NCBI RefSeq assembly: GCF_004010195.1
Contig: NC_057740.1
Location: 20,108,405-20,172,404 of the forward strand
Length of the DNA: 64,000 nucleotides
Source: Chiloscyllium plagiosum
Taxonomy: Eukaryota
Reading direction: 5' to 3'
Shown: one piece after another, positions 21,091-64,000 of the stretch
Numbering within the stretch: the stretch's first letter is position 1
Layout of the letters: each line of letters starts with the position of its first letter
Position numbers and translations under genes: made by a program
The notes under the pieces: generated by a model
What the model was told of the DNA's origin: nothing
The model's database searches: none
Seen by the model: only the letters and a program-made list of their open reading frames with translations

Positions 21091-21639
21091 GTAGTCTGGG
21101 GTGGCATCTGTGAGAGCAGGAATGGACAGCCCAAGGCAGTGTGTGTGTAAGGTCAAACCTGAAGTGGGAGAGATCCAACCCCTGTGAGGAGTACAAATTC
21201 AGCATGACCAGGCTTTTATGGACTTCGGTGTTGATCTGTTAACGATGTTTCCCAATGTTTAACATGAAGGATGTAATGTTTAACTTTTTAACTTTGTTTT
21301 TTGTATTTTTTTACTTTGTAGCTAAGATTCTGAACCTTAGGTACATTTATATCAAAGATGGCGCCATCACTGACAATGTGTAAACTCTCCACATGCACTG
21401 AGTCCATGTGACAATAAACCTAATTCAGTTCAAATTCCAGCATTCAGAAATTACATGCAGAAGAGACCAGGTTACAGGAGCACAAACATCTCTTGAGTGT
21501 TGTGCGCCTGGAAGACATAGGATGTGGTGAGGCCATGAAAGGATTTCACAACACGAGTGAGAATTATAACAATAATCACAGGGTAAGAATTTCAAAATCA
21601 AGATGCTGCTTCACTGGGAGCCAATTTTGACCCAGTTAG

Positions 21640-39335: not shown

Positions 39336-39403
39336 AAATAAAAATGCAGTTTGCAGATTCTTGTACGTTTCAATTCTGGCATTAATTATATTCACTGAAA
39401 CAG

Positions 39404-42400: not shown

Positions 42401-45400
42401 CAACACAAGCGGCTCCAACAAGTGGTGAGAATCCTATTACTGTTGTGTTGTAATATATTCAGACCTCAATTTGAGCAGTAGTTGGTCAAAAACTCAATGA
42501 AAAAACAATTAATGTTGTTCCCTGATTTTAATAAATTTACCGGGACGCTAGTTGATTTGCCTGGTACACATTTTCATTTTGATCTTTCCTGACGAAGTTT
42601 GGAAAGCAGCTCTACATCTCATTGTGAATAAATCAATGTAGTTTGTACATCGAAACACATTTCTGTGTATGGTTTTCCTTGTGCACCTATCTGAATCGCA
42701 TGTCTTACTTTTACTGCACCAACAGAAACATCAACTGCAAGTACAGAGACAACCTCTCGAAACCTCAACCACCAGTGCAGAGACCACGACTGAGACAGTG
42801 ACTACAACATCAACTCCAGAACCAACAAGTTCAACAGCACAAACAACTGCAAGCAGCTCCGCTTCAATATCAGCAGTGGAATCGACAACAGCTTCAACAA
42901 CACAGGGCACTACTTCAACTGGTCAGTGGAAATAAAAATTCCATATGTACATTAAATTTGATTGCATTCAATACAAAACTGCATAAAGAGAAGGTGGTGG
43001 ATTAAGTCAAAATACCACTGCATTTTTGTTCATAATTACGAGAACGAAAGTGAGTTACATAAATTTTCTTCCCACTTCTGTTTCAATGGGACATCATCCC
43101 ACCATTAGATACCGGATCAATTAGAATAGTGAGGACATATTGCAGATAAAGGCAACGTGTAAATTAACACATATTTCAATATATTAAGACAATGTGAATG
43201 TAAGTTTCAATGATGCCATTAATTCCATTCACTGCAACTGCAGAAACATCAACTGCAAGGACAGTGACCACTACTGGAGTCCCAAGTTCTACGTCAATTG
43301 CTGCATCCACCAGTACAGCTGAATCAACAACTACAAGCAGTTCCACGACAACCCCTGCAGCTGAATCCACGACAATCGAAACAACACAAGCGGCTCCAAC
43401 AAGTGGTGAGAATCCTATTACTGTTGTGTTGTAATATATTCAGACCTCAATTTGAGCAGTAGTTGGTCAAAAACTCAATGAAAAAACAATTAATGTTGTT
43501 CCCTGATTTTAATAATTTTACCGGGACGCTAGTTGATTTGCCTGGTACACATTCTCATTTTGATCTTTCCTGATGAATTTTGGAAAGCAGCTCTACATCT
43601 CATTGTGAATAAATCAATGTAGTTTGTACATCGAAACACATTTCTGTGTATGGTTTTCCTTGTGCACCTCTCTGAATCGCATGTCTTACTTTTACTGCAC
43701 CAACAGAAACATCAACTGCAAGTACAGAGACAACCACTGCACTGGCAACCTCTTCATCAATTCTTGCATCAACTACCACATCTGGTGCAACAAGCACCGT
43801 GACTTCCACGACAGCATCGACAAGCATCTCAACATCACCGCTCACTACCAGTGGTGAGTTTGCAATATACAATTATCGACAGTAGCACCTGATTGATTCC
43901 AATCCAGTGTAGCATCTGAAGGTATTCAGAAAGTTTTGAAATCATTTCTTAAGCTTCTACTTTTAGATCTATGAAACTGCAGGGCTCAAGAGTACAGGTT
44001 GTTCCTGGTGCATTTCACAAGCTTCAATTTTTATACATTTATCGTCCTGCAAAATTTCACAAACCGTGGTACTGAAACAATATATCAAATTATAAGATGG
44101 GTGAACATTTGCACCATTCGATTTCGAGTGGCCTGATTGCCTGACATAACATACTACTTACTTTTCACAGTGACTCCAGAAACCTCAGCTACCAGTGCAG
44201 AGACCACGACTCAGACAGTGACGACAACATCAACTCCAGCACCAACAAGTTCAACAGCACAAACAACTGCGAGCAGCTCCCCTTCAACATCAGCAGTGGA
44301 ATCGACAACAGCTTCAACAACACAGGGCTCTACTTCAACTGGTCAGTGGGAATAAAAAATTCCATATGTACATTAAATTTGGTTGCATTTAATACAAAAC
44401 TGCATAAAGAGAAGGTGCTGGATTAAGTCAAAATATTACTGCATTTTTGTTCATAATTATGAGAACGAAAGTGAGTTACATAAATTTTCTTCCAACTTCC
44501 GTTTCAATGGGACATCATCCCACCATTAGATACCGGATCAATTAAAATAGCAAGGACTTATTGCAGATAAAGGCAATGTGTAAATTAACATATCTTTAAA
44601 TATATTAAGACAATTTGAATGTAAGTTTCAATGATGCCATTAATTCCATTCACTGCAACAGCTGAAACATCAACTGCAAGTACAGTGACCACTACTGGAG
44701 TACCGAGTTCTACGTCAACTGCTGCATCCACCAGTACAGCTGAATCAACAACTACAAGCAGCTCCACTCCAACCCCTGCAGCTGAATCCACGACAACCGA
44801 AACCACACAAGGACCTACAACTACTGGTGAGAATCCTTTTACCTTTGTGTTGTAATTTATTAATATCTCAATTTGAGCAGTACTTGGTCAACTCTTGCAT
44901 CAACTACCACATCTGGTGCAACAAGGAACAGGAGAATCGACGTTTCGGGCATAAGCCCTTCATAAGCCCTTATTAATTTATTAATATCTCAATTTGAGCA
45001 GTACTTGGTCAAAAACTCAATGAAGAAACAATAAATGTTGTTCCCAGACTCTAGTAATTTTACTCAGACGTTAATTGATTTGCCAGCTTCACATTCACAG
45101 ATTGATCTTTCCCGATGAAGTTTGGAAAGCAGCTTTACATCTCATTGTGAATAAATCAATGCATTTTGCAAATCAAAACAAATTTCTACGTATGGTTTTC
45201 CTTGTACACCTATCTGAATCGCATGTCTTACTTTCACTACACCAACAGAAACATCAACTGCAAGTACAGAGACAACCACTGCACTGGCAACCTCTTCATC
45301 AACTCTTGCATCAACTACCACACCTGGTGCAACAAGCACCGTGACTTCCACTCCAGCATCGACAAGCATCTCAACATCACCGCTCACGACCAGTGGTGAG

Positions 45401-48400
45401 TTTGCCATAAACATTATCGCCAGTTATACCTGATTGATAGAAATCCAGAGTAGTAGCTGATGCTATTCAGAAAGTTTAGCAAACATTTCTTCCGCTTCTA
45501 CTTTTATGTCTATGACCCTGCAGGTCTCAAGAGTACGGGTAGTTGCTGGTGCATTTCACAAGCTTCAACTTTTATATGTTTATTGTCCTGCACAATTTCA
45601 CAAACTGTGGTAATAAAAGAATATAGCACACTGTATAATGGGTGAACATTTGCACCATTTGATTCCGAGTGGCCTGATTGCCTGACTAAACCTATTTCTT
45701 ACTTTTCACAGTCACTCTCGAAACCTCAACCACCAGTGCAGAGACCACGACTGAGACAGTGACTACAACATCAACTCCAGAACCAACAAGTTCAACAGCA
45801 CAAACAACTGCAAGCAGATTGACTTCAACATCAGCAGTGGAATCGACAACAGCTCCACCAACACAGGGCACTACTTCAACTGGTCAGTGGAAATAAAAAA
45901 TTCCATATGTTCATTAAATTTGGTTACATTCAATAGAAAACTGCATAATGAGAAGTTACTGGATTAAGTCAAAATATTACTGCATATTTGTTCATAATTA
46001 TGAGAACGAAATTGAGTTACATAAATTTTCTTCCCACTTCTGTTTCAATGAGACATCACCCCACCATTATATATTGAATCAATTAGAATAGCGAGGACTT
46101 ATCGCATATAAAGGCAATGTGTAAATTAATACATAACTAAAAATATTAATATAAATTGAATGTAAGTTTCAATGATGCCATTAATTCCATTCACTGCAAC
46201 TGCAGAAACATCAACAGCAAGTACAGTGACCACTACTGGAGTACCGAGTTCTACGACAACTGCTGCATCCACCAGTACAGCTGAATCAACAACTACAAGC
46301 AGCTCCACTACAAGCCCTGCAGCTGAATCCAAGACAACCGAAAGCACACAAGGATTGACAACTACTGGTGAGAATCCTTTTACCTTTGTGTTGTAATTTA
46401 TTAGTATCTCAATTTGAGCAGTACTTGGTCAAAAACTCAATGAAGAAATAAAAAATGTTGTTCCCAGACTCTAGTAATTTTACTCAGACGTTAATTGATT
46501 TGCCAGCTTCACATTCTCATTTGGATCTTTCCTGATGAAGTTTGGAAAGCAGCTTTACATGTCATTTTCAATAGATCAATGCAGTTTGTACATCGAAACA
46601 CATTTCTATGTATGGTTTTCCTTGTACACCAATCTGAATCACATGTCTTACTTTCACTGCACCAACAGAAACATCAACTGCAAGTACAGAGACAACCACT
46701 GTACTGGCAACATCTTCACCAACTCTTGCATCAACTACCACATCTGGTGCAACAAGCACCGTGACTTCCACTCCAGCATCGACAAGCATCTCAACATCAC
46801 CGCTCACGACCAGTGGTGAGTTTGCAATAATCATTATCGCCTGTTCCACCTGTTTGATGGAAATCCAGTGTAGAAGCTGATGGAATTCAGAAAGTTTATT
46901 AAACATTTCTTCCGCTTCTACTTTTAGGTCTGGGACCCTGCAGGTCTCAAGAGTATGGGTAGTTGCTGGTGCATTTCACAAGCTTCAATTTTTATATGTT
47001 TATTGTACTGCACAATTTCACAAACTGTGGTAGCAAAAGAATATAGCACACTGTACAATGGGTGAATATTTGCACTATTCGATTCCAAGTGGCCTGATAG
47101 CCTGACTAAACCTATTACTTACTTTTCACAGTCACTCTCGAAACCTCAACCACCAGTGCAGAGACCACGACTGAAACAGTAACTACAACATCAACTCCAG
47201 AACCAACAAGTTCAACAGCACAAACAACTGCAAGCAGCTCCGCTTCAACATCAGCAGTGGAATCGACAACAGCTTCAACAACACAGAGCTCTACTTCAAC
47301 TGGTCAGTGGAAATAAAAAATTCCATATGTACATTAAATTTGATTGCATTCAATACAAAACTGCCTAAAGAGGAGGTGGTGGATTCAGTCAAAATATTAC
47401 TACATTTTTGTTCATAATTATGAGAACGAAAGTGAGTTACATAAATTTTCTTCCCCCATCTGTTTCAGTGGGACATCATTCCACCATTAGATACCAGATC
47501 AATTAGAATAGCGAGGACTCATTGCAGATAAAGGCAATGTGTAAATTAACACATCTTTAAATATATTAAGACAATGTGAATGTAAGTTTCAATGATGCCA
47601 TTAATTCCATTCACTGCAACAGCTGAAACATCAACTGCAAGTACAGTGACCACCACTGGAGTACCGAGTTCTACGTCAACTGCTGCGTCCACCAGTACAG
47701 CTGAATCAACAACTATAAGCAGTTCCACTACAACCCCTACAGCTGAATCCACGACAACCGAAACAACACAAGGACCGACAACAACTGGTGAGAATCTTAT
47801 TACCTTTGTGTTGTAATATATTAAGACTTCAATTTGAGCAGTACTTGGTCAAAAACTCAATGAAGAAACAATTAATGTTGTTCCTTGATTTTAATAACTT
47901 TGCCGGGACGCTTGTTGATTTGCCTGGTACATATTCTCATTTTAATCATTCCTGATGAAGTTTGGAAAGCAGCTCTACATCTCATTGTGAATAAATCATT
48001 GTAGTTTGTCAACCAAAACACATTTCTGTGTGTGGTTTCCCTTGTGCACCTATCTGAATCGCGTGTCTTACTTTTACTGCACCAACAGAAACATCAACTG
48101 CAAGTACAGAGACAACCACTGCACTGGCAATCTCTTCAGCAACTCTTGCATCAACTACCACACCTGGTGCAACAAGCACCGTGACTTCCACTCCAGCATC
48201 GACAAGCATCTCAACATCACCGCTCACGACCTGATTGATAGAAATCCAGTGTAGTAGCTGATGCAATTCAGAAAGTTTAGCAAACATTTCTTCCGCTTCT
48301 ACTTTTAGGTCTATGACCCTGCAGGTCTCAAGACTACGGGGAGTTGCTGGTGCATTTCAGAAGCTTCAATTTTTATATGTTTATTGTCCTGCCAAATTTC

Positions 48401-51400
48401 ACAAACTGTGGTAATAAAAGAATATAGCACACTATACAATGGGTGAACATTTGCACCATTTGATTCCGAGTGGCCTGATTGCCTGACTAAACCTATTTCT
48501 TACTTTTCACAGTCACTCTCGAAACCTCAACCACCAGTGCAGAGACCACGACTGAGACAGTGACTACAACATCAACTCCAGAACCAACAAGTTCAGCAGC
48601 ACAAACAACTGCAAGCAGCTCGGCTTCAACATCAGCAGTGGAATCGACAACAGCTNNNNNNNNNNNNNNNNNNNNNNNNNNNNNNNNNNNNNNNNNNNNN
48701 NNNNNNNNNNNNNNNNNNNNNNNNNNNNNNNNNNNNNNNNNNNNNNNNNNNNNNNNNNNNNNNNNNNNNNNNNNNNNNNNNNNNNNNNNNNNNNNNNNNN
48801 NNNNNNNNNNNNNNNNNNNNNNNNNNNNNNNNNNNNNNNNNNNNNNNNNNNNNNNNNNNNNNNNNNNNNNNNNNNNNNNNNNNNNNNNNNNNNNNNNNNN
48901 NNNNNNNNNNNNNNNNNNNNNNNNNNNNNNNNNNNNNNNNNNNNNNNNNNNNNNNNNNNNNNNNNNNNNNNNNNNNNNNNNNNNNNNNNNNNNNNNNNNN
49001 NNNNNNNNNNNNNNNNNNNNNNNNNNNNNNNNNNNNNNNNNNNNNNNNNNNNNNNNNNNNNNNNNNNNNNNNNNNNNNNNNNNNNNNNNNNNNNNNNNNN
49101 NNNNNNNNNNNNNNNNNNNNNNNNNNNNNNNNNNNNNNNNNNNNNNNNNNNNNNNNNNNNNNNNNNNNNNNNNNNNNNNNNNNNNNNNNNNNNNNNNNNN
49201 NNNNNNNNNNNNNNNNNNNNNNNNNNNNNNNNNNNNNNNNNNNNNNNNNNNNNNNNNNNNNNNNNNNNNNNNNNNNNNNNNNNNNNNNNNNNNNNNNNNN
49301 NNNNNNNNNNNNNNNNNNNNNNNNNNNNNNNNNNNNNNNNNNNNNNNNNNNNNNNNNNNNNNNNNNNNNNNNNNNNNNNNNNNNNNNNNNNNNNNNNNNN
49401 NNNNNNNNNNNNNNNNNNNNNNNNNNNNNNNNNNNNNNNNNNNNNNNNNNNNNNNNNNNNNNNNNNNNNNNNNNNNNNNNNNNNNNNNNNNNNNNNNNNN
49501 NNNNNNNNNNNNNNNNNNNNNNNNNNNNNNNNNNNNNNNNNNNNNNNNNNNNNNNNNNNNNNNNNNNNNNNNNNNNNNNNNNNNNNNNNNNNNNNNNTGT
49601 TGTTCCCAGACTCTAGTAATTTTACTCAGACGTTAATTGATTTGCCAGCTTCACATTCACAGATTGATCTTTCCCGATGAAGTTTGGAAAGCAGCTTTAC
49701 ATCTCATTGTGAATAAATCAATGCAGTTTGTAAATCAAAACACATTTCTGTGTAAGGTTTTCCTTGTACACCTATCTGAATCTCATGTCCCACTTTCACT
49801 ACACCAACAGAAACATCAGCTGCAAGTACAGAGACAACCATTGCACTGGCAACCTCTTCATCAACTCTTGCATCAACTCCCACACCTGGTCCAACAAGCA
49901 CTGTGACTTCCACTCCAGCATCGACAAGCATCTCAACATCACCGCTCACTACCAGTGGTGAGTTTGCCATCAACATTATCGCCAGTACCCCCTGATCGAT
50001 GGAAATCCAGTGTAGTTGCTGATGGAATTCAGAAAGCTTAGCATATATTTCTTCCGCTTCTACTTTTAGGTCTATGACCCTGCAGGTCTCAAGAGTATGG
50101 GTAGTTGCTGGTGATTTCACAAGCTTCAATTTTTATATGTTTATTGTCCTGCACAATTTCACAAACTGTGGTAATAAAAGAATATAGCACACTGTATAAT
50201 GGGTGAACATTTGCATCATTCGATTCCAAGTGGCCTGATAGTCTGACAAAACCTATTTCTTACTTTTCACAGTCACTCTCGAAACCTCAACCACCAGTGC
50301 AGAGACCACGACTGAGACAGTGACTACAACATCAACTCCAGAACCAACAAGTTCAACAGCACAAACAACTGCAAGCAGCTCCGCTTCAACATCAGCAGTG
50401 GAATCGACAACAGCTTCAACAACACAGGGCTCTACTATAACTGGTCAGTGGAAATAAAAAAATCCATATGTACATTAAATTTGATTGCATTCAATACAAA
50501 ACTGCATAAAGAGAAGGTGGTGGATTAAGTCAAAATACTACAGCATTTTTGTTCATAATTATGAGAACGAAAGTGAGTTACATAAATTTTCTTCCCACTT
50601 CTTTTTCAATGGGACATCATCCCACCATTAGATCAATTAGATTAGCGAGGACTTATTGCAGATAAAGGCAATGTATAAATTAACACATATTTAAATATAT
50701 TAAGACAATTTGAATGTAAGTTTCAATGATGCCATTAATTCCATTCACTGCAACAGCAGAAACATCAACAGCAAGTACAGTGACCACTACTGGAGTACCG
50801 AGTTCTACGTCAACTGCTGCGGCCACCAGTACAGCTGAATCAACAACTACAAGCAGCTCCACTACAACCCCTGCAGCTGAATCCACGACAACTGAAACAA
50901 CACAAGGAGCGACAACAAGTGGTGAGAATCCTATTACCTTTGTGTTGTAATACATTAAGACCTCAATTTGAGCAGTACTTGATCAATGAAGAAACAATAA
51001 ATGCTGTTCTCTGATCTTAGTCATTTTACTGAGATGTTAGTTGATTTGCCAGGTTCACATTCTCAATTTGATCTTTCCCGATGAAGTTTGGAAAGCAGCT
51101 CTACATCTCATTGTGAATAAATCAATGTAGTTTGTAAATCAAAACACATTTCTGTGTATGGTTTTCCTTGTGCACCTATCTGAATCGTATGTCTTACTTT
51201 CACTGCACCAACAGAAATATCAACTGCAAGTACAGAGACAACCACTGCACTGGCAACCTCTTCATCAACTCTTGCATCAACTACCACACCTGATACAACA
51301 AGCACCGTGACTTCCACTCCAGCATCGACCATCATCTCAACATCACCGCTCACTACAAGTGGTGAGTTTGCAATAATCAATTATCGCCAGTTCCACCTGA

Positions 51401-52333
51401 TTAATTCCAATCCAGTGTAGCATCTGAAGGTATTCAGAAAGTTTTAAAACATTTCTTAAGCTTCTACTTTTAGGTCTATGAAACTGCAGGTCTCAAGCGT
51501 TCAGGTTGTTGCTGGTGCATTTCACAAGCTTCAATTTTTATACATTTATCGTCCTGCAAAATTTCACAAACCGTGGTACTGAAAGGATATATCAAATTAT
51601 AAGATGGGTGAACATTTACACCATTCGATTCCGAGTGGCCTGATTGCCTGACATAACGTATTACTTACTTTTCACAGTGACTCCAGAAATCTCAACCACC
51701 AGTGCAGAGACAACAACTGAGACAGTGACGACAACATCAACTCCAGCACCAACAAGTTCAACAGCACAAACAACTGCAAGCAGCTCGGCTTCAACATCAG
51801 CAGTGGAATCGACAACAGCTTCAACCACACAGGGCACTACTTCAACTGGTCAGTGGAAATAAAAAATTCCATATGTTCATTAAATTTGGTTACATTCAAT
51901 AGAAACCTGCATAATGAGAAGTTGCTGGATTAAGTCAAAATATTACTGCACTTTTGTTCATAATTATGAGAACGAAAGTGAGTTACATAAATTTTCTTCC
52001 CACTTCTGTTACAATGAGATATCATCCCACCATTATATACCAGATAAATTAGAATAGCGAGGACTTATCGCATATAAAGGCAATGTGTAAACTCATACAT
52101 TACTAAAAATATTAATACAAATCGAATGTAAGTTCCAATTATGCCATTAATTACATTCACTGCTACAGCAGAAACATCAACAGCAAGTACAGTGACCACT
52201 ATTGGAGTACCGAGTTCTACGTCAACTGCTGCATCCACCAGTACAGCTGAATCAACAACTACAAGCAGCTCCACTACAACCCCTGCAGCTGAATCCACGA
52301 CAACCGAAACAACACAAGGACCTACAACAACTG
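39404..52333 (+). CDS. mucin Ser/Thr-rich (PTS) domain encoded by ~25 small phase-1/phase-1 exons
   Basis: Exon A (ETSTASTVTTTGVPSST...TTQGPTTT; AG..G|gtgaga): 39404/7-39550, 42263-42424, 43244-43405, 44662-44826, 46206-46367, 47623-47787, 50757/60-50921, 52169/72-52333. Exon B (147 nt; ETSTASTETTTALATSSSTLAS...SPLTTS; G|gtgagt): 39852-39998, 41066-41212, 43707-43853, 45249-45395, 46669-46815, 49811-49957, 51215-51361. Exon C (171 nt; VTPETSTTSAETTTETV...QGSTST; G|gtcagt): 40316-40486, 41529-41699, 44171-44341, 45712-45882, 47132-47302, 48513-gap, 50273-50443, 51678-51848. All intact copies are multiples of 3 and stop-free. Confidence 0.88.
41850..42075. mobile_element. palindromic Penelope pLTR insertion in mucin intron
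   Basis: ttattgctggaacagcacagcaggtcagg and its inverted copy cctgacctgctgtgctgttccagcaataa flank a gap; target duplication ataaattttctt on both sides. Confidence 0.75.
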
Positions 52334-52373
52334 GTGAGAATCCTTTTACCTTTGTGTTGTAATTTATTAATAT

Positions 52374-52468
52374 GCTGAAAATGTGTTGCAGGAAAAGCGC
52401 AGCAGGTCAGGCAGCATCCAAGGAACAGGAGAATCGACGTTTCGGGCATAAGCCCTTCATACGCCCTT
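52374..52468 (-). mobile_element. Penelope pLTR fragment in mucin intron
   Basis: ggaaaagcgcagcaggtcaggcagcatccaaggaacaggagaatcgacgtttcgggcataagcccttca flanked by duplicated taatttattaatat. Confidence 0.75.
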
Positions 52469-52736
52469 ATTAATTTATTAATATCTCAATTTGAGCAGTA
52501 CTTGGTCAAAACCTCAATGAAGAAACAATCACTGTTTTACCCAGACTCTAGTAATTTTACTCAGACGTTAATTGATTTGCCAGCTTCACATTCACAGATT
52601 GATCTTTCCCGATGAAGTTTGGAAAGCAGCTTTACATCTCATTGTGAATAACTCAATGCAGGTTGTAAATCAAAACACATTTCTGTGTATGGTTTTCCTT
52701 GTTCACCTATCTGAATCGTATGTCCCACTTTCACTG

Positions 52737-53236
52737 NNNNNNNNNNNNNNNNNNNNNNNNNNNNNNNNNNNNNNNNNNNNNNNNNNNNNNNNNNNNNNNN
52801 NNNNNNNNNNNNNNNNNNNNNNNNNNNNNNNNNNNNNNNNNNNNNNNNNNNNNNNNNNNNNNNNNNNNNNNNNNNNNNNNNNNNNNNNNNNNNNNNNNNN
52901 NNNNNNNNNNNNNNNNNNNNNNNNNNNNNNNNNNNNNNNNNNNNNNNNNNNNNNNNNNNNNNNNNNNNNNNNNNNNNNNNNNNNNNNNNNNNNNNNNNNN
53001 NNNNNNNNNNNNNNNNNNNNNNNNNNNNNNNNNNNNNNNNNNNNNNNNNNNNNNNNNNNNNNNNNNNNNNNNNNNNNNNNNNNNNNNNNNNNNNNNNNNN
53101 NNNNNNNNNNNNNNNNNNNNNNNNNNNNNNNNNNNNNNNNNNNNNNNNNNNNNNNNNNNNNNNNNNNNNNNNNNNNNNNNNNNNNNNNNNNNNNNNNNNN
53201 NNNNNNNNNNNNNNNNNNNNNNNNNNNNNNNNNNNN
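52737..53236. other. assembly gap of exactly 500 N (probable unknown-size scaffold join)
   Basis: Round size; the other gaps are 323, 94 and 942 N. Confidence 0.8.
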
Positions 53237-53483
53237 TTATGGTGCTGACATACTATCTGATTGTTAACAAAATACAGAGAATCTAGGCTTAATTCCACAA
53301 CCTTCACAAATGCAATTTTGAGCTCTGAGAGGTGCTGCATAAATTATATTCATTGTCAGCAAATAAATTGCATGGTCCAACATGGACCCTGTTCTTCTGA
53401 CCAACTAATGTTAGGGAACTTAAATTGTGACTTTGCACATATTCCCTTTCATTACAAGTGGTGCTTGGTATAATGCATTAGAA

Positions 53484-53648
53484 CTGAAAATGTGTTGCTG
53501 AAAAAGTGCAGCAGGTCAGGCAGCATCCAAGGAGCAGGAGAATCGACATTTCGGGCATGAGCTCTTCTTCCTGACGGGCTGTGCTTTTCCAGTAACACGA
53601 TTTTGGCTCTGATCTCCAGCATCTGCAGTCCTCACTTTCTACTCGAAG
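53484..53648. mobile_element. head-to-head Penelope pLTR insertion, same site as 55986-56150
   Basis: Inverted halves gctgaaaaagtgcagc.../gctgtgcttttccag; flanked by taatgcatt(a/t)gaac duplication; absent from units 3-5. Confidence 0.75.
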
Positions 53649-53737
53649 ATAATGCATTTGAACACTGACTACCCATTCATCAATATATAGCATGTGAGAC
53701 AAACAAAGAGTAGGCCGAATATTGACTGGATACCTAC

Positions 53738-54932
53738 CATTTACATGCAGGCTGTCTTTGTCTAATGTGTATGGCCCCAACATCGAAAAATTGTCGGTCT
53801 TATTTTCAACCACATGATACACAAGCACTCTATTGATGTCCTGAATGGTGGAATCATTTTTGAAGGAACACATTGCCGTCACTGTGCTTCTGTCACCATC
53901 GACCATGCTGCAAAATATTGAAAGAAGATTAGCATCAAAGGGAGGAACTTTGAGCCAAAGTAGTCACCATATCACCAATGGAGGGCAATGTTTAGAGGCA
54001 AATCATTTGTCAGCAAAAGAAAACTCTATGCAAGCAACATTTCATTACACATCCATTCACTGTAATAACAACAACTTTTTCCTTCTAGATAACAGTTAAT
54101 TTCTCATTCACTGTAATCTTCAAGATTCAAGTGCAAGATCAGTGTCAATATTACATATAAATTATCATATTTCTTACCTGAGTGATTGAAATCTGCAACT
54201 GGAGAACGTAGCATTTATGCTGCTGTTTTTGAACAGGTCATTGAGCTACAGGGAATAAAATCAAACATAATTACATTACAAAAAAGTAATGTGCAACTAA
54301 AATTTCTCTTTCAAAAAGATTTGTTGAATTATCTCACCTTGTTTGCAATCATGCCTGTCTGATTGGAAGAGTTTGATTCAATGTCTTGGAATGATGGACG
54401 ACTTATAATAAATGTCAGATTATAGTCAGTAAGTATGAGTTCCTCTGTTGGAGTTACAAGTGGAACAACAGCTGTGGAAAAAGAGGAAAACAGTTTATCT
54501 CACACACACAAATACACTGAGGATGCATTGGAAGAACAAGAGCCTATTGCTGAAATAGTGACCAGATTTACGAGGAACAATGGGAGATCCCATGAAAATT
54601 GGTTTAGAGAGTTAATTATGATTCAATCTAGGCCTGCTGTATTGATGACAAGAAAGATGTCAAGTATTAGCCCTGAACTTGTGCAAGCTTACCAGCTTCT
54701 GCATAAGTGCTGACAATTGCAACACACTAACTTTAAACAATACTCATTTACCGAATCAACTATAATATAAACAAGGCAAATTCAAAATAATAAGGTTACT
54801 CTGACTGAATCATCCATTAAATCACAACGTGATCTTGGCAGAATTGAAATAAATGCGGACGGGTAAAAATATTCCAAAAAATAAAGAAAACGAGTTTCCA
54901 CTCACTGGTTACAAGAAGTGCCTCATGGTAAT
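53738..54932 (-). CDS. MUC16: MUC16/CA125-like SEA repeat, unit 1
   Basis: Exons 54932-54906 (27 nt, DYHEALLVT), 54471-54338 (134 nt, TVVPLVTPTEELILTDYNLTFIISRPSFQDIESNSSNQTGMIANK), 54245-54178 (68 nt, LNDLFKNSSINATFSSCRFQSLS), 53907-53738 (170 nt, MVDGDRSTVTAMCSF...LGPYTLDKDSLHVN). All GT-AG, phases 1-1-0-2-1. The symbol means MUC16-like; orthology is unproven. Confidence 0.85.
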
Positions 54933-55395
54933 CTGGAACAAAAAGAGCATCGTGTTGTCAGACAAGTCTATCACAATGTGTCTCATTAAATAAATGTGAA
55001 TGAAATGATGTAATACGATAAAGTAGCCAATCCGATCAATGCCCAGTCTCTGAGAAGACATTTCAGATGAATGTGAGAACGGTCAATGTAAATAACATCA
55101 AGTGAGGAATTTACAGATATTATCATAAATCTGTTATTTTGGGGACACAATTATTTTGAAGTACCACATTATGTTGCCAAATTTCAAATGAGCCAAACTT
55201 TAATTGGCATGTTGTTGAAATGTAATTCTTCATCTGTAATGTTTCTTGCGACCTCCTGTGTGATGTGCAATACGTCATATCATGGTTGTTGGCAGATATT
55301 GCTCTAAATATTACAGCAAATTCCAAACAAATTGAGGACTGAGTTTAACATGTAAATAGCTTCATGTATTTTGAGTGTGCAGGTGTCAAACGATA

Positions 55396-55553
55396 GTAGG
55401 AGAAAGTGAGGACTGCAGATGCTGGAGATCAGAGTTGAAAATGTATTGCTGGAAAAGCGCAGCAGGTCAGGCAGCATCCAAGGAGCAGGAGAATCGACTT
55501 TTCGGACTTTAGCCCGATTCCTGCTGCGCTTTTACAGCAACACATTTTCAGCT
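55396..55553. mobile_element. head-to-head Penelope pLTR insertion
   Basis: ggagaaagtgaggactgcagatgctggag...gctggaaaagcgcagcagg and inverted cctgctgcgcttttacagcaacacattttcagct. Confidence 0.75.
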
Positions 55554-55985
55554 GTTAAAAATAGTGCCAAACTCAAAGAGGAAATGACTGAGAATTTAAT
55601 ACATTTTTCACAATAGTCCCTTTTGCCTTCTTTCTTTCAAGAGGGAAAAGAAATGGAATAAGTTTGAGAGAGATCCAACAATTTCTAAACTCAATTCCAG
55701 AATTATGATTCGGTTTGGGATGCAATACATGGTACACTCCAGTGTAAAAGGAATTTATGGTGCTGACATACTATCTGATTGTTAACAGAATACAGAGAAT
55801 CTCGGCTTAATTCCACAACCTTCACAAATGCAATTTTGAGCTCCAAGAGCTGCTGCATAAATTATATTCATTGTCAGCAAATAAATTGCATGGTCCAACA
55901 TGGATCCTGTTCTTAGGGAACTTAAATTGTGACTTTGCGCATATTCCCTTTCATTACAAGTGGTGCTTGGTATAATGCATTAGAA

Positions 55986-56150
55986 CTGAAAATGTGTTGC
56001 TGGAAAAGTGCAGCAGGTCAGGCAGCATCCAAGGAGCAGGAGAATCGATGTTTCGGGCATGAGCCCTTTTTCCTGACCGGCTGTGCTTTTCCAGCACACA
56101 TTTTCAGCTCTGATCTCCAGCATCTGCAGTCCTCACTTTCTCCTAGAATA
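55986..56150. mobile_element. head-to-head Penelope pLTR insertion (paralog of 53484-53648)
   Basis: Same structure and same target duplication as in unit 1. Confidence 0.75.
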
Positions 56151-56238
56151 TAATGCATTTGAACACTGACTAACCATTCGTCAATATATAGCATGTGAGA
56201 CAAACAAAGAGTAGGCCGAATATTGACTGGATACCTAC

Positions 56239-57425
56239 CATTTACATGCAGGCTGTCTATGTCCAATGTGTATGGCCCCAACATCGAAAAATTGTCGGTC
56301 TTGTTTTCAAACACATGATACACAAGCACTCTATCGATGTCCTGAATGGTGGAATCATTTTTGAAGGAACACATTGCCGTCACTGTGCTTCTGTCACCAT
56401 CGACCATGCTGCAAAATATTGAAAGAAGATTAGCATCAAAGGGAGGAACTTTGATCCAAAGTAGTCACCATATCATCAATGGAGGGCAATGTTTAGAGGC
56501 ATGTCATTTGTCAGCAAAGGAAAACTCTGTGCAAGCAACATTTCATTACACATCCATTCACTGTAATAACAACAACTTCTTCCTTCTAGATAACAGTTAA
56601 TTTCTCATTCACTGTAATCTTCAAGATTCAAGTGCAAGATCAGTGTCAATATTACGTATAAATTATAATATTTCTTACCTGAGTGATTGAAATCTGCAAC
56701 TGGAGAATGTTGCATTTATGCTGCTGTTTTTGAACAGGTCATTGAGCTACAGGGAATAAAATCAAACATATTTAATAAAAGAAAATAGAAACGTGGAACA
56801 AAAATTAGTCCTTCAAAAAGATTTGTTGAATTATCTCACCTTGTTTGCAATCATGCCTGTCTGATTGGAAGAGTTTGATTCAATGTCTTGAAATGATGGA
56901 CGACTTATAATAAATGTCAGATTGTAATCAATAAGTATGAGTTCCTCTGTTGGAGTTACAAGTGGAACAACAGCTGTGGAAAAAGAGGAAAACAGTTTAT
57001 CTCATACACAGAAATACACTGAGAATGTATTGGAAGAAGAAGAGCCTATTGCTGAAATAGTGGCCAGATTTACCAGGAACAACGGGAGAGCCCATGAAAT
57101 TTGATTTCAAGAGTTGATTATTATTCAATCTAAATCTGCTCTATTGATGACAAGAATGGTGTCAAGCTTTCAGCCTGAATTTGTGCAATCTTACCATCTA
57201 TCGCGTAAGTGCTAACAATTGCAAATCGCTAACTTTAAACAATATTCATGTATCTATTCACGAATTAGTCAATCAGTATCAAGCCCAAGATAATCTGGAT
57301 ACTCTGACTGAATCATTCATTAAGTCGCAACATAACATTGGCAGAATTGAGATAAATGTGGACAAGCAGACAATATTCCCAAAAACAATTCTACTCACTG
57401 GTTACTAGACGTGCCTCATGGTAAT
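56239..57425 (-). CDS. MUC16: MUC16-like SEA repeat, unit 2
   Basis: Exons 57425-57399, 56973-56840, 56746-56679, 56408-56239; ends LGPYTLDIDSLHVN. Confidence 0.85.
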
Positions 57426-58405
57426 CTAGAACAAAAAGAACACTGTGGTGTCAAGCAAGGCTATCACAATGTGTCTCACTAAATAAATGTGCAAGAAATT
57501 ATGTAAGACGTAAATAAATGTCAGATTCTGATCAATGCCCAGACTCCGTGATGAATGTCAGAACAGACAATGTAAATAACATCCAGTGAAGAATTTTCAG
57601 AAATTTTTGTGAAAACTGGGTCTTGTGCAATGTTGGGACCACATTTAATTTCAAGAACTATATCACATTTATAAATGTCAAATGAGCCTAAGATTTAATT
57701 GGTATGTTGTAGATGTGTAATTATTAGTCATTAACGTTTACTGCTGTCTCCTGTCAGAAATGTGCAATGTATGATAGCTTTGACAAGAGATTGCTGTAAC
57801 TATGACAGCAAAGTCCCAACAAATTGTGGACTGAGTGTAACATGTAAATACCTTCATGTATCCTGTGTGTGCAGATGTTAAAAATAATGCCAAACTCAAA
57901 GATGAATTGATTCAGAATCTCATCCATTTTATACATTAGTGTCTTTTTTATTTCAAGGGGCCAAAGAAATGGAGTGAGTTGTCTGAGCCACTTTTGAAAG
58001 ACATCAACAAATCTCTAAATTCAATTCCAGAATTATGATTCATTCTTGGATGCGATAGATGGTAGAATCCAACGTAAAAAGATTTTATGCTGCTCAAATA
58101 TTGTCACTTTATTAACACAATACAGATATTCTTAGCATAATCCCACAATCTGCATGAATGGAATTTTTAACTCAGAGACATATTGCATAAATAAAATGCT
58201 TTGTCAGCCAACAAATTCCATGGTCACCATAGACTCTGTCCTTTTGACCAAAATATGTTGGAGAATTTGAATTGTGAATTTTCACATGCTCCCTTAATTT
58301 GCAAGTAGCTCATTGGATAATGTATTAGAACACTGTCTACCTATTCCTCAATACATAGCATGTGAGATAAACAAAGAGTAGGCCAAATATTGACTGGATA
58401 CCTAC

Positions 58406-59620
58406 TATTTACATAGAGGCTGTTTTTGTCCAATGTGTATGGCCCCAATATCGAAGCATCTTTCGTCTTATTTTCAAACACATGATACACAAGCACTCTA
58501 TCGATGTCCTGAATGGTGGAATCATTTTTGAAGGAACACATTGCCATCACTGTGCTTCTGTCACCATCGACCATGCTGCAAAACATGGAAAGAAGATTAG
58601 CATCAAAGGCAGGAACTGTGATCCGATGTAGTCACCATGTCACCACGATAAACATGATGACTTCAATGGAGGACAATTTTTAGAGGGGTATCATTTTTCA
58701 GTAAAGCAAACCTCTTTGCAATCAATATTTCATTCCACATCCATTCTGTGTAATAACAATGACTTCTTCCTTTTGGATAACTGTTAATTTATCATTCACT
58801 GTAAGTTTATGAGAGCAAGACTCAAGTGCAGATCATTGTAAATATTATGTGTAAATTGCAAGATTTCTTACCTGAATGACTGTAATCTGCAGCTGGCAAA
58901 TGTAGCATTTATGCTGCTGTTTTTGAACAGGTCATTGAGCTTCAGAGGAAAAAAAACATTCTCCAGGTTAGGAAACTAAAGAAGTGTGGAATGAAATTTC
59001 CCCTTCAAATAGATGTTATAAAGTTTCTCACCTCGTTTGCAATCATGCCTGTCTGATTGGAAGAGTTTGATTCAATGTCTTGGAATGATGGACGACTTAT
59101 AATAAATGTCAGATTATAGTCAGTAAGTATGAGTTCCCCTGTTGGAGTTACAAGTGGAACTACAGCTGTGGAAAAAGAGGAAAACAGTTTATCTCACACA
59201 CAGAAATACACTGAGGATGCATTGGAAGTACAAGAGCCTATTACTGAAATAGTGGCCAGATTTCAATACGAAATCCCATGAAATTTGATTTCAAGAGTTG
59301 ATTATTATTCAATCTAAATCTGTTGTATTGATGACAAGAAAGGTGTCAAGCTTGTAGCCTGAATTTGTGCAAACTTACCATCTATCGCAGAAGTGCTGAC
59401 AACTGCAAATCGCTAACTTCAAATAATATTCATTTAAGTATTCAAGAATAAATTAATCAGTATAAAGTCCAAGATAATCTGGATACTCTGACTGAATCAT
59501 ACACTAAATCAAAATATAATCTTGGCAGAATTGAGATGAATGTGGACAAGCAGACAATATTCCCAAAGAAAATGAAAGATAGTTTCTACTCACTGGTAGC
59601 AAGACGTGCCTCATGGTAAT
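58406..59620 (-). CDS. MUC16: MUC16-like SEA repeat, unit 3
   Basis: Exons 59620-59594, 59165-59032, 58939-58872 (AAG acceptor), 58575-58406; ends LGPYTLDKNSLYVN (human MUC16: LGPYTLDRNSLYVNG). Confidence 0.85.
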
Positions 59621-59889
59621 CTGGAACAAAAATAACATCATGTTGTCAAACAAGGCTATCACAGTGTGTCTTACTAAATGTGCAAGAAATGAGGTAAGAC
59701 GTTAATGGCAGTAAATCTGACTCCGAGAAGGCCTTTCAGATGAATGAGAGAACAGACAATGTAAATAACATCAAGTGAGGAATTTTCAGACATTTTTGTG
59801 AAAGCTGTTCTTTGTGCAACGTTGGGACCACATTTAATTTCAAGAACATATCACATTGACAAATGTCAAATGAGTCAAACAGTTAACTA

Positions 59890-60415
59890 GGCAAAAGTGG
59901 GTACTGCAGATGTTGGAGATTAGAGTGGTGCTGGAAAAGCACAGCAGGTCAGGCAGTATCTGAGGAGCAGGAAAATCAACGTTTTGGGCAAAATCCCTTC
60001 ATCAGGAATGAATCCTGATGCTGCCTGACCTACTGTGCTTTTCCATCATCACTCTAATTAGATTAGATTTTAGATTAGATTAGATTATTTACAGTGTGGA
60101 AACAGGCCCTTCGGCCCAACAAGTCCACACCGACCCGCCGAAGCGTAACCCACCCAGACCCATTCTCCTACATTTACCCCTTCACCTAACACTACGGGCA
60201 ATTTAGCATGGCCAATTTGCCTAACCTGCACAGTTTTTGTGTTTGTGGGAGGAAACCGGAGCACCCGGAGGAAACCCACGCAGACACAGGGAGAACGTGC
60301 TAACTCCACACAGTCAGTCGCCTGAGGCGGGAATTGAACCCGGGTCTCTGGCGCTGTGAGGCAACAGTGCTAACCACTGTGCCACCGTGCCGCCCACTAA
60401 TCTTGACTCCAGACA
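59890..60415. mobile_element. palindromic Penelope pLTR insertion carrying a nested HE1 SINE
   Basis: gcaaaagtgggtactgcagatg...gctggaaaagcacagcaggtcaggcag...cccttcatcagg and inverted gatgctgcctgacctactgtgcttttcca; resumes after the SINE as taatcttgactccag. Confidence 0.7.
60058..60395 (-). mobile_element. young full-length HE1-type SINE
   Basis: (ttaga)n tail through gccaccgtgccgccc; near-identical to the copy at 19991-20315. Confidence 0.93.
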
Positions 60416-61106
60416 TTTAACTGTTGTAGATGTGTAATTATTAATCTGTAATGTATCCTGCTATGTCCTGTCTGAAATATGATACCATGGTTTTGAGAAG
60501 AGATTGCTGTAACTATGACAGCAAAGTCCCTAAAAATTGTGGACTGAGTGAAACATGTAAATACCTTCTTTATTCAAGTGTGCAGACATTAAAAGATAGT
60601 GCTAAACTCAAAGACAAACTGAATCAGCATTTAACACATTTTACATAATAGTGTCTTTTGTTTTCTTTGTTTCAAGGGGCCAAAGAAATGGAATGAGTTG
60701 TCTGAGCCTCTTCTGACAGAGTTCACAGAATTTCTAAATTCAATTCCAGAATTACGATTCATACTGGGAATCAATAGATGGGAATCCAACGTAATAAACT
60801 TTTATGCTTCTCATGTATTGTTGCTTTATTAACACAATACAGACATTCTTGGCTTAATCCTACAATTTGCATGAATGCAATTTTTGTGTAGATAATATTC
60901 TTTGTCAGCAAAAACATTCCATGGTCACCATAGACTCTGTCGATCTGGCCAAAATATGTTGGATGATTTGAATTGTGACTTTTCCCATGTTCCCTTCCAT
61001 TGCAAGTATTTCATCAGATAATGCATTAGAACACTGTCTACTTATTCCTCAATATATAGCATGTGAGATAAACAAAGAGTAGGCCAAATATTGACTGGTT
61101 AACTAC

Positions 61107-62305
61107 CATTTACATAGAGGCTGTCTTTATCCAATATGTATAGCCCCAATGTCGAAGCTTCTTTTGACTTATTTTCAAACACATGATACACATGCACTCT
61201 ATCGATGTCCTGAATGGTAGAATCGTTTTTGAAGGAACACATTGCCGTCACTGTGCTTCTGTCACCATCGACCATGCTGCAAAACATGGAAAGCAGATTA
61301 GAATCAAAGTTAGGAACTTTGATCCGAGGTAGTCACCGCGTCACCAAGATAAACATGATGACTTCAATGGAGGACACTTTTTACAGGCAAATCATTTGTC
61401 AGCAAAGCAAACCTCTTTGCAATGAACATTTCATTACACATCTATTCCATGTAATTACAGTGACCTCTTCCCGCTGGATAACTGTTAATTTATCATTCAC
61501 TGTAATTTTCTGAGAGCAAGACTCAAGTGCAAGATCATTGTAAATATTATGTATAAATTGAAATATTTTATACCTGAATGACTGTAATCTGCAGCTGGCA
61601 AATGTCGCATTTATGCTGCTGTGTTTGAACAGGTCATTGAGCTACAGAGAAAAAAAAACAAGCATTCTTTAGGTAAAGAAACTAAAGAAATGTGGAATGA
61701 AAATTTTCCTTTCAAATAGATGTTACAAAGTGTCTCACCTCAATTGCAATCATGCTTGTCTGATTGGAAGAGTTTGATTCAATGTCTTGGAATGATGGAC
61801 TACTTATAATAAATGTCAGATTGTAGTCAATACTACTTACTTCCTCTGTTGTTGTTACAAGTGGAGTTGCAGCTGTGGAAACGGAGGCAACAGTTTATTT
61901 CATACAAAGAAATAAGCTGAGAATGTATTGAAAGATTTACCCAGAGCAACGGGAGATCCCATGGAAATTGATTTCAAGAGTTAATTATGATTCAGTCTAA
62001 ATCTGCTGCATTAATGGCTGGAAGGCTGTCAAGCATTCACCCTTAATTTGTGTAAGCTTACCAGCTACCTCATCAGTGCTGACAATTACAGCACGCTAAG
62101 CTCAACCAATCATAGTTTACCTATTCATCTAAACAGTAATCAGTATTAAACTCAAGATAATCTGATGATAGTCTTGATGAATCATTCATTAAATGAGAGC
62201 ATATACTTCACCAGAAAACCTAAAAATATGCACAAGCTGAAAATATTTTAGAAAAAGATGAAATGTGTGCCTACTCACTGGTTATAAGACGCACCTCATG
62301 GTAAT
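61107..62305 (-). CDS. MUC16: MUC16-like SEA repeat, unit 4
   Basis: Exons 62305-62279, 61872-61739, 61641-61574, 61276-61107; ends LGLYILDKDSLYVN. Confidence 0.83.
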
Positions 62306-63263
62306 CTAGATACAAAAGAGGATTGAGTGGTCACACAAAGTTATGACAATGTGTCTCACTAATTAAACATACAATAATTAAACTATCACAATAATCGTAA
62401 CTAATCTAATCAATGTCAACAATTCTAAGAATAGCTTCAAGATGAATGTAAGAACTGACAGATGTAAATTTCATCCAGTGAGGAATGTTTAGGCATTGTT
62501 ATGCAGACTTTTATTTGAGCAGTGTTAGGAGCACTTTGGCAATTTTGCCATCACTTTCATAGCAGTCAAAAAAGCTGGCTTGTTGTTGATGTGTAATTAA
62601 TGATCTGTAATAGTTCCTATTTCCTGTCTGTAATGTGCAACAAACCATATCATGGCTTTAGGAACATATCACTGCAAATATTATAGCAAATTTAACAATA
62701 TGTTATTGGTCTGTGTCTATTATGCAAAAAAAAATCTTCATTTATTCTGCATGTGTAGCCAGCTTCAAACTGAATGAGAAGTTAATATATTTTTGGTAAT
62801 GGTCTCTTTTGGCTTCTTTCTTTCAAAGGTATGAGAAATGGAATAAGTTACCTGAGCCTCTTTTGAAAGAGTTCAAAAAGTTCCCATCTCAGTTACAGAG
62901 TAATGATTCCTTCTGGCATGCAACAGATGGTAATAAGAATTTATGTTTCTGTCATATTGTCATATTATTAACACAGTACAGAGGCTTGTATGACGAATAT
63001 ACAATCTCCATGAATGCAATTTCAGGCTTAGGTAGGTATTGGGTAAATGATATTTTGTGACAACAAAAAAAATTGAACTGTCTACCACAGAATTTGTCCT
63101 TCCAATCAACAAATGGTGGAGCATTTGAATTTGACTTTGTACATGTTCCCTGCCATTGCAAGTGGTGCTTGGTATCATGCATTAGAATACTGCCCAGCTA
63201 TTCATGAAAACCTATTGTGTGTGACAAACAAATAATTAAGCTGAATATTGACTGGATAACTAC

Positions 63264-64000
63264 CATTTACAAAGAGGCTGTCATTGTCCAATGTGTATGG
63301 CCCGAACTTCGAAACATCTTTGGTCTTATTTTCAAACACATGATACACAAGCTCTCTGTCAACGTTCTGAACAGTAGAATCATTTTTGAAGGAACATATT
63401 GCTGTCACTGTGCTGCTGTCACCATTGATTATGCTGCAACAAAATCAAAAGATTAACTTGAAAGGCAGGTACTTTGATCTGTTGTAGTCACCACATCACC
63501 AATAAAGGCATGATAACTTCAGTTGTGAATACTTTTAAAAGAAGACTTATTTGTCCACAAAGCAGAGCTCTGTGTGATGTGTATTTCTCTGCCCATCCAT
63601 TTTTTGTAATAACAATGGCCTTTACCTTCAGGGTATCTGTTAATTTTGCATTAAGTGCAATGCTCTGTGAGCAAGACTCAACTTCAAGATCATTGTAAAT
63701 ATTACACGTAAATGACAATATTTTTTACCTGAATGACTGAAATCTGCAGCTGGCGAATGTAGGATTTATGGTGCTGTTTTTGAACAGATCATTGAGCTAC
63801 AGGGAAAGAAAATAAAACATACTTTTGATTGAGAAACAAAAGAAATTTGGAATGAAAATTTCCCCTTCAAATCAATTTGTCAAATTATCTCACCTCATTT
63901 GCAATCATACTTGTCTGATTGGAAGAGTTTGATTCAATATCTTGGAATGATGGGTCACGTATAATAAAAGTTATGTTATAGTCAATAAGATTTGATTCCT
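63264..64000 (-). CDS. MUC16: MUC16-like SEA repeat, unit 5 (partial, runs off window)
   Basis: Exons >64000-63894, 63796-63729, 63433-63264 (SIINGDSSTVTAICSFKNDSTVQNVDRELVYHVFENKTKDVSKFGPYTLDNDSLFVN). Confidence 0.83.

What the first reader, a model, noticed from the sequence alone, without database searches (positions are those of the whole stretch)
53237..64000. Shark-type MUC16/CA125-like tandem SEA array with a mammal-like exon plan
Seen in the sequence: five genomic repeats each splice through canonical GT-AG sites (27+134+68+170 nt; phases 1,1,0,2,1) into an open 133-aa unit. Each unit has a YNLTFII strand, LFKNSS, a two-cysteine loop (C-18aa-C) and an LGPYTLDxxSLyVN(G) end, plus many NxS/T sites. 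Established knowledge, as I recall it: human MUC16 repeats use a short linker exon, a 68-nt LFKNTS..C exon and a ~173-nt exon ending LGPYTLDRNSLYVNG, with a C-19aa-C loop. Inference: a MUC16-type SEA repeat with matching intron phases exists in a cartilaginous fish and was amplified independently here, since introns are still near-identical between units. That would push the CA125 repeat architecture back to the jawed-vertebrate ancestor.
Basis: partly seen in the sequence, partly recalled or inferred. Interest (0 to 1): 0.8.

Follow-up and report, generated by a model that had tools for sequence, protein, structure and literature searches.

The report
Shark MUC16 mucin SEA repeat array
This stretch holds five spliced repeats of a shark cell-surface mucin from the same family as the human ovarian-cancer marker CA125/MUC16; databases already label such shark genes, but a mislabelled lamprey relative suggests the family likely dates back to the first vertebrates.

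Summary
The finding is real and correctly identified. Five repeats on the minus strand splice (27+134+68+170 nt, phases 1,1,0,2,1) into open 133-aa SEA units. RNA-type contigs show all four junction types. The best structure matches are MUC16 only. The units belong to a complete MUC16-type gene: signal-peptide exon, 5,958-nt PTS exon, 22 repeat SEA, one anchor SEA, transmembrane exon and tail. A 103-kb scaffold block that is most likely flipped splits the gene; its tail exon sits at window 1207-1299 (+). Three such genes lie on this contig.
Corrections: introns are 65-97% alike, not near-identical throughout. Human repeats have five exons and 156 aa; the shark has four and 133. NCBI already names shark, ray, chimaera, bichir, sturgeon and lungfish proteins 'mucin-16-like'.
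The family therefore likely predates jawed vertebrates, with repeats re-amplified in each lineage. Ten paper searches found no such account; the papers read go back only to the bird-mammal split. No earlier scan note covered this. Verdict: new member of a known kind, moderate interest.

The parts
63894..64000 (-). Unit 1 exon B (134 nt, runs on to 64027): linker plus first SEA strand and helix
63729..63796 (-). Unit 1 exon C (68 nt, phase 0-2), first cysteine
63264..63433 (-). Unit 1 exon D (170 nt, phase 2-1), second cysteine and GxYxL end
   Evidence: an RNA-type contig piece ends exactly at 63264 and 63433
62279..62305 (-). Unit 2 exon A (27-nt linker, phase 1-1)
61739..61872 (-). Unit 2 exon B (134 nt, phase 1-0)
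61574..61641 (-). Unit 2 exon C (68 nt)
61107..61276 (-). Unit 2 exon D (170 nt)
59594..59620 (-). Unit 3 exon A (27 nt)
59032..59165 (-). Unit 3 exon B (134 nt)
   Evidence: joint 58939/59032
58872..58939 (-). Unit 3 exon C (68 nt; AAG acceptor)
58406..58575 (-). Unit 3 exon D (170 nt)
57399..57425 (-). Unit 4 exon A (27 nt)
   Evidence: joint 56973/57399 in X1 and X2
56840..56973 (-). Unit 4 exon B (134 nt)
56679..56746 (-). Unit 4 exon C (68 nt)
   Evidence: joint 56408/56679 in X1 and X2
56239..56408 (-). Unit 4 exon D (170 nt); alone it matches MUC16 structures
54906..54932 (-). Unit 5 exon A (27 nt)
54338..54471 (-). Unit 5 exon B (134 nt)
54178..54245 (-). Unit 5 exon C (68 nt)
   Evidence: joint 53907/54178 in X1
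53738..53907 (-). Unit 5 exon D (170 nt), last exon before the gap
52737..53236 (.). 500-N scaffold gap; right end of a 103-kb block that is most likely inverted in the assembly
1207..1299 (+). Last coding exon (cytoplasmic tail and stop) of the same gene, inferred from the inversion
   Evidence: P0004 residues 1336-1365 match at 96.7%; AG acceptor and stop
39362..52736 (+). Array of short PTS exons (about 1.4-kb period); likely belongs to the neighbouring MUC16-like paralog, not to this gene

Best explanation
The five repeats are spliced SEA-domain units from the middle of a bamboo-shark MUC16-family gene that likely encodes a very large membrane-anchored mucin, and the array likely grows and shrinks by unequal crossing-over of a frame-preserving four-exon cassette. 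Shown: the exon plan, the splicing, the MUC16-type SEA sequence and the presence of every other MUC16 part nearby. Inferred: the two halves are one gene split by a flipped scaffold block (about 90%). The predicted protein of about 5,000 aa has a signal peptide, about 2,000 aa of PTS for O-glycans, 22 or more disulfide-tied, N-glycosylated SEA repeats that would act as a spacer, one old anchor SEA, a transmembrane helix and a 30-aa tail. It would build an apical glycocalyx like human MUC16 and could be shed near the membrane; the anchor SEA carries a GS[IV] hairpin that may be an autocleavage site (about 50%). Each unit is 399 nt and begins and ends in phase 1, so gain or loss of whole units keeps the frame. 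The three shark genes are likely co-orthologs of the single mammalian MUC16.
For: Splicing: exact CT..AC (GT-AG) joints at 53907/54178 and 56408/56679, 56973/57399, 58939/59032; D-to-A junction seen as loose ends. Contigs of X1, X2, X9 cover exon bins only (13, 13, 4 of 30), while X3 covers 28 of 30 bins and shows none of these joints. Identity: exon D alone hits 3 MUC16 chains at E 1e-5 to 2e-4 and mouse 1IVZ; congener protein P0004 hits 4 MUC16 chains at 2e-13 to 3e-11 and the first other SEA at 4e-3; Pfam SEA in 5 of 5 full homologs; Foldseek ranks 1-5 are MUC16 (homolog P0006). One gene: P0004 runs from the minus-strand units into the plus-strand block, TM and tail; P0003 starts with a 98% match to unit 5 exon D and continues into the block; the block's edge begins in the same intron register. 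Signal exon and PTS exon. Orthology: the C-terminal tree of 42 proteins recovers mammals, turtles, frogs, basal ray-fins and chondrichthyans as starred groups. Amplification: window units group only with congener units; 79-97% to each other's best match, 54-59% to sawfish, 28-33% to mammals; the congener has four 99-100% identical units that this window lacks; pN/pS 0.090/0.191. Synteny: NDUFA7 and HnRNP_M family matches lie 2.5 and 3.8 Mb away on the same contig.
Against: No single read or contig spans the gap; the inversion is inferred from predicted proteins of relatives. The RNA label of X1, X2, X9 is a guess, tissue unknown, X1 and X2 are another organism and one study, and near-identical units make unit-level assignment unsure. 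Both trees lack non-MUC16 outgroups and are midpoint-rooted; lamprey has a long branch. Pfam SEA is not detected on single exons (0 of 2). Synteny is 2 of 4 markers (eIF3g on C8 and C27, Tim44 not found), human neighbours are recalled, and HnRNP_M could be the paralog MYEF2. The model is only medium quality (pLDDT 65) and its alignment included tetrapod homologs. Glycosylation, cleavage and localisation are untested.
Confidence: 0.88

Rival explanations
1. A separate multi-SEA mucin lineage (an old whole-genome-duplication paralog, or convergent) rather than a MUC16 ortholog.
For: Only 28-33% identity to mammalian repeats; loop is 18 not 19 residues; four exons not five; three copies in shark; trees have no outgroup.
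Against: TM plus tail align without difficulty across 19 named vertebrate proteins and the tree follows the species groups; the anchor SEA forms one cross-vertebrate group; two distal-19p13.2-type markers lie on the same contig.
Confidence: 0.07
2. The inversion is real DNA, so both genes are broken in this animal and the window's array encodes a truncated, secreted or dead product.
For: The assembly shows the halves 100 kb apart in opposite orientation; no read spans the gap here.
Against: Both breakpoints are 500-N gaps inside the most homogenised repeats; flipping the block repairs two genes at once and puts three paralogs head to tail; frames are intact and pN is under pS.
Confidence: 0.04
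3. The repeats are untranscribed genomic duplications and the spliced frame is a reader's construction.
For: One AAG acceptor; no reads from the single raw RNA run laid (X8, which the tool calls no test).
Against: Exact junctions in RNA-type contigs; the same 68-nt and about 170-nt exons in the other units tested (21 of 25 and 27 of 27).
Confidence: 0.01

Closest known systems
Human MUC16/CA125 (structures 7SA9, 8GKL, 8VM1; mouse 1IVZ)
   Same: Giant PTS exon, then tandem two-cysteine SEA repeats, a GS-hairpin anchor SEA, TM and short tail; similar repeat count (19 in human, PMC10829539; 22 or more here); inner intron positions likely shared.
   Different: Unit 133 aa in four exons against 156 aa in five (PMC3431878); loop C-18-C against C-19-C; 6-8 sequons per unit; the anchor SEA is last in shark but followed by one more SEA in the tetrapods sampled; three genes against one.
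NCBI 'mucin-16-like' models of Chiloscyllium and other chondrichthyans (P0002-P0005, P0008, P0028, P0029)
   Same: Same gene lineage; P0005 matches the plus-strand block exons at up to 100%; P0004, catshark, sawfish and skate form one starred clade.
   Different: Automated, fragmentary models; none of those retrieved has the full signal-PTS-SEA-TM plan of this gene, and each lineage amplified different units.
Lamprey P0086/P0127, named 'mucin-2-like' [Lethenteron reissneri]
   Same: PTS region, 14 Pfam SEA stretches, GS[I] anchor SEA, TM and tail; best structures are MUC16.
   Different: Loop mostly C-15-C; 26-28% identity to window units; no signal peptide in the model; exon plan not testable here.
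MUC1, TMPRSS, agrin SEA domains
   Same: Same fold; the anchor SEA has a GS[IV] hairpin resembling the GSVVV cleavage motif (PMC3431878).
   Different: Far weaker matches; single SEA domains (recalled; Lang 2006 calls MUC16 the only human mucin with multiple SEA).

Membership tests
MUC16 family (vertebrate orthogroup) | Many tandem SEA domains | tested here: met
   10 units on the window's arm, 12 repeat units plus anchor in the block; Pfam SEA in congener proteins
MUC16 family (vertebrate orthogroup) | SEA sequence and fold closest to MUC16, not to other SEA domains | tested here: met
   (shark-only queries); one search agrees but its profile included tetrapod homologs
MUC16 family (vertebrate orthogroup) | Conserved two-cysteine loop in each repeat | tested here: met
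   5 of 5 units, 18 residues between the cysteines; 18 also dominates in bichir and paddlefish, 19 in lungfish and tetrapods
MUC16 family (vertebrate orthogroup) | Signal peptide and large N-terminal PTS domain in a giant exon | tested here: met
   Exon at C31:20195269-20189312, 5,958 nt, 46% P+T+S, phase 1-1; upstream ATG exon matches the skate N-terminus at E 1.5e-4. Joining to the array is by frame and position, not by RNA
MUC16 family (vertebrate orthogroup) | MUC16-type TM and cytoplasmic tail | tested here: met
   tail score against mink 40, reached by 2 of 2000 shuffles. Depends on the inferred inversion
MUC16 family (vertebrate orthogroup) | Membrane-proximal SEA with GSVVV-like hairpin | tested here: met
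   strict pattern in 16 of 20 anchor domains and 0 of 275 others; GS present in all 19 anchors aligned
MUC16 family (vertebrate orthogroup) | Conserved synteny | tested here: inconclusive
   2 of 4 markers on C31 within 4 Mb; human neighbours recalled; immediate neighbours not identified
MUC16 family (vertebrate orthogroup) | Apical expression, O-glycosylation, ectodomain shedding | not testable with these tools
   only spliced contigs of unknown tissue
Human-type CA125 repeat | 156-aa unit encoded by five exons, C-19-C loop | tested here: not met
   133 aa, four exons, C-18-C against PMC3431878
Human-type CA125 repeat | Same intron positions inside the SEA domain | tested here: inconclusive
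   Indirect only: 20 of 22 truncated domains in C-19-type protein models end within a few columns of the two shark boundaries, p about 3e-14 under a uniform null with windows chosen after seeing the data; no tetrapod DNA was available
Human-type CA125 repeat | OC125/M11 epitope and mesothelin binding | not testable with these tools
   no assay; about 30% identity makes a shared epitope unlikely (inference)
MUC1/MUC3/12/13/17-type single-SEA mucins | One SEA domain, best similarity to MUC1-type SEA | tested here: not met
   23 SEA domains; no MUC1 hit at E up to 1 for P0004

The most novel reading that the evidence does not exclude
MUC16 is a gene of the last common ancestor of all vertebrates. 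An unchanging membrane-proximal core (C-15-C anchor SEA with a GS[IV] cleavage-type hairpin, TM, tyrosine/histidine tail) has been kept from lamprey to mammals, while the repeat SEA array is an accordion that each lineage rebuilt from a different unit through a phase-symmetric exon cassette. Sharks tripled the gene, lobe-finned fishes added one residue to the CA125 loop, and teleosts lost it. The ancestral function would then lie in the core and in barrier length, not in the CA125 epitope.
Probability: 0.72. Interest if true: 0.55.

Novelty: new member of a known kind. Interest (0 to 1): 0.45.

Why it matters
The papers read date MUC16 to before the bird-mammal split and list it as absent from teleosts (PMC3431866, PMC1552070, PMC11414713). 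A full MUC16 architecture in sharks and a likely one in lamprey would add some 200 million years (dates recalled) and turn the teleost absence into a loss. It also separates what is conserved (anchor SEA hairpin, TM, tail) from what turns over (repeats), which points to testable residues for the open questions of how MUC16 is cleaved and what its tail does. The gene name itself is not new, and the locus doubles as a clear case of a flipped scaffold block.

Tried and rejected
Pfam on single exons: 0 of 2 hit, too short. Raw RNA run X8: 0 reads laid, no test. The run search listed no holder on record as RNA. Tim44 marker not found; eIF3g on other contigs. The idea that the PTS array at 39362-52736 is this gene's N-terminus was dropped: the gene has its own PTS exon upstream, and homologs P0027 and P0014 run from such PTS exons into the neighbouring paralog's SEA units. 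P0017 was first taken for that neighbour's ortholog; its low identity and a third locus suggest a third paralog, not checked further. P0090 is a willow protein, a false hit. Signal exon of the neighbouring paralog not found. Papers not held: Duraisamy 2006, Lang 2007, Pei and Grishin 2017, White 2022. Searches returned nothing on shark or lamprey MUC16 by listing. Earlier scan notes: nothing near, nothing in relatives, one unrelated algal protein. No complex prediction was run.
Full report
Coordinates. Window position x is G000:C31 position 20108404+x. Positions under 1 or over 64000 below are extended window positions in the neighbouring stretches.

1. Observation. The gene lies on the minus strand. 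Four exon types recur: A 27 nt, B 134, C 68, D 170, with phases 1,1,0,2,1. Nineteen exons from 64027 to 53738 splice into 655 aa without a stop; all 18 introns are GT-AG, one with an AAG acceptor. Four units are whole in the window; the fifth is cut by the edge. Introns are 65-97% alike over 10 pairs and four segments, exons 84-97%; only units 4 and 5 approach identity. Summed pN is 0.090 against pS 0.191.

2. Splicing. No holder was on record as RNA, but three contig sets guessed to be RNA cover SINEs and exons and not introns. They give joints exactly at 53907/54178, 56408/56679, 56973/57399 and 58939/59032, all CT..AC on the plus strand, and loose ends that read from exon D into exon A. X3 covers 28 of 30 bins, introns included, and has none of these joints. 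X1 and X2 are one study of another organism; X9 is a second study and shows B, C and D in one contig. Tissue is unknown, and joints may come from sister units.

3. Identity. Exon D alone finds three MUC16 chains, mouse 1IVZ and one chance hit among 177,635 PDB sequences. Six near relatives were found; three carry the NCBI name mucin-16-like from Chiloscyllium species. Pfam SEA scores in 5 of 5 full proteins and 0 of 2 single exons. P0004 matches MUC16 structures at E 2e-13 to 3e-11 and the first other SEA at 4e-3. A model of homolog P0006 (pLDDT 65) has MUC16 at Foldseek ranks 1-5, rmsd 2.5-2.9 A to the human chains.

4. The whole gene. The array continues upstream to 79724, ten units on this arm. 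Next come a 5,958-nt exon (86865-80908, 46% P+T+S, phase 1-1) and an ATG exon near 92858 that matches a skate N-terminus. The array stops at the 500-N gap. Twelve more repeat units, an anchor SEA, a TM exon and a tail exon lie on the plus strand from -49254 to window 1299. That block (-50490 to 52736) is bounded by two 500-N gaps. Congener protein P0004 passes from the minus arm into the block and on to the tail; P0003 begins with unit 5 exon D at 98% and continues into the block. The block's first 88 bases match 53325-53237 at 90%, the same intron register in a sister copy. Flipping the block also joins the PTS exons at 39362-52736 to nine SEA domains, a TM and a tail at -50999 to -78365, the order seen in homolog P0027. 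A third paralog lies at C31:19.88 Mb. I infer an assembly inversion. Two unplaced contigs (L019, L020) each hold a D exon (L019 a whole unit) and may be missing units or haplotypes.

5. Relatives. The profile-free HMMER scan gave 120 proteins. I looked up 30 of them, chosen by hand: 21 are named mucin-16, mucin-16-like or MUC16, 7 have neutral names, 1 is a lamprey 'mucin-2-like' and 1 is a willow false hit. They span sharks, rays, chimaera, bichir, reedfish, sturgeon, coelacanth, lungfish, frogs, turtle, squamates and mammals; none of the 30 is a teleost, and 90 were not named. The 42 proteins with a complete tail give a tree whose starred groups are mammals, turtles, frogs, basal ray-fins and chondrichthyans; the last splits into the lineage of this gene (sharks and rays) and a second one that includes chimaera. 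The tree has no outgroup and lamprey is a long branch.

6. Amplification. From 24 proteins, 295 SEA domains were cut and 179 kept after removing near-copies (FastTree). One group of 20 anchor domains spans lamprey to mammals. Repeat domains mostly group by lineage: the window with its congener, sawfish, thorny skate, lamprey, lungfish, bichir, spadefoot, squamates, mammals. Support for deep joins is modest. Window units 1 and 2 have one-to-one partners in the congener (97%, 94%), while the congener has four 99-100% identical central units of its own. So the centre turns over and the ends are older. A 399-nt phase 1-1 cassette allows this without frameshift (inference). The loop is mostly 18 residues in chondrichthyans, bichir and paddlefish, 19 in lungfish and tetrapods, 15 in anchors and most lamprey repeats.

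7. Exon plan against mammals. Human repeats are 156 aa in five exons with cysteines at 59 and 79 (PMC3431878, passages), 19 repeats in the revised model (PMC10829539, passages). No tetrapod DNA could be read here. Indirectly, 20 of 22 truncated domains in C-19-type gene models end at the two shark boundaries (windows set after seeing the data). Linker lengths in those models peak at values 12 and 22 residues apart, which fits two linker exons of 36 and 66 nt that I recall for human. So the inner boundaries likely match and mammals have one more linker exon.

8. Lamprey. P0086/P0127 has a PTS N-terminus, 14 Pfam SEA stretches and no VWD hit at E 1e-5, best structure hits MUC16 (2e-5) against MUC1 (0.48), a GS[I] anchor, and a tail that shares PHLDLRK with mink and kangaroo rat; tail score 67 against mink, 0 of 2000 shuffles. 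This is a single species' automated model.

9. Mechanism. By architecture and established knowledge of membrane mucins, the product is likely a tall glycocalyx protein. The anchor SEA matches a strict GS[IV] pattern in 16 of 20 cases and 0 of 275 others; PMC3431878 reports that the second SEA from the membrane in human clusters with the GSVVV cleavage motif. Autocleavage in shark is a hypothesis.

10. Prior knowledge. PMC1552070 (passages): Muc16 in chicken, on chromosome 28, missing in Fugu. PMC3431866 (passages): MUC16 arose before birds and mammals split, citing Duraisamy 2006 (not seen). PMC11414713 (passages, section 14, one supplement row): one copy in human, mouse, chicken; none in turtle or six teleosts. 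PMC4948705 (passages): no mention of MUC16. PMC9578598 and PMC9178871 (passages): background only. Ten searches listed no paper on chondrichthyan or lamprey MUC16; subscription papers and four relevant ones were not held, so priority is open.

11. Verdict. Observation confirmed, interpretation supported with corrections. New member of a known kind, already named by pipelines; the deeper dating and the core-versus-accordion pattern are the added value. Interest 0.45.

Noticed in passing
window 39362-52736 (+): About ten 1.4-kb repeats, each with three short PTS exons: a mucin domain built from many small exons, likely the N-terminal part of a second MUC16-like gene, whereas the window's gene uses one giant exon.
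   Followed up: partly
G000:C31:20057914-20161140: 103-kb block between two 500-N gaps that appears inverted in the scaffold and splits two genes.
   Followed up: yes
G000:C31:19875783-19875944 (-): Anchor-SEA exon of a third MUC16-like paralog.
   Followed up: no
protein P0086/P0127: Lamprey protein named mucin-2-like that has MUC16 architecture and tail.
   Followed up: yes
proteins P0017, P0014: Some shark paralogs alternate SEA domains with PTS stretches, recalling the alternating SEA/PTS proteins reported for Xenopus (cited in PMC4948705).
   Followed up: no
window 37811-38569 (-): Inverted, decayed copy of two PTS exons and introns just before the PTS array.
   Followed up: no
window 19080-21091: 29-bp GC-rich satellite (about 47 copies in three blocks) interrupted by a SINE-like repeat and a gap.
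   Followed up: no
window 10677-12768 (-), 8705-9419 (+): Fragments that look like a LINE reverse transcriptase/endonuclease and a pogo-type transposase, by recalled resemblance.
   Followed up: no
L011 (extended 80908-86865, -): The giant PTS exon has a 39-nt basic period with 830-950-nt higher-order repeats, each closed by a lysine/arginine-rich stretch with one cysteine.
   Followed up: no
extended 75398-75502 (-): Stray, diverged partial copy of exon D inside an intron.
   Followed up: no
window 53500-53640, 55400-55550, 55980-56140, 59900-60400: SINE-like repeats in the D-A introns; the one after exon D is shared by units 4 and 5 only, marking their recent duplication.
   Followed up: no
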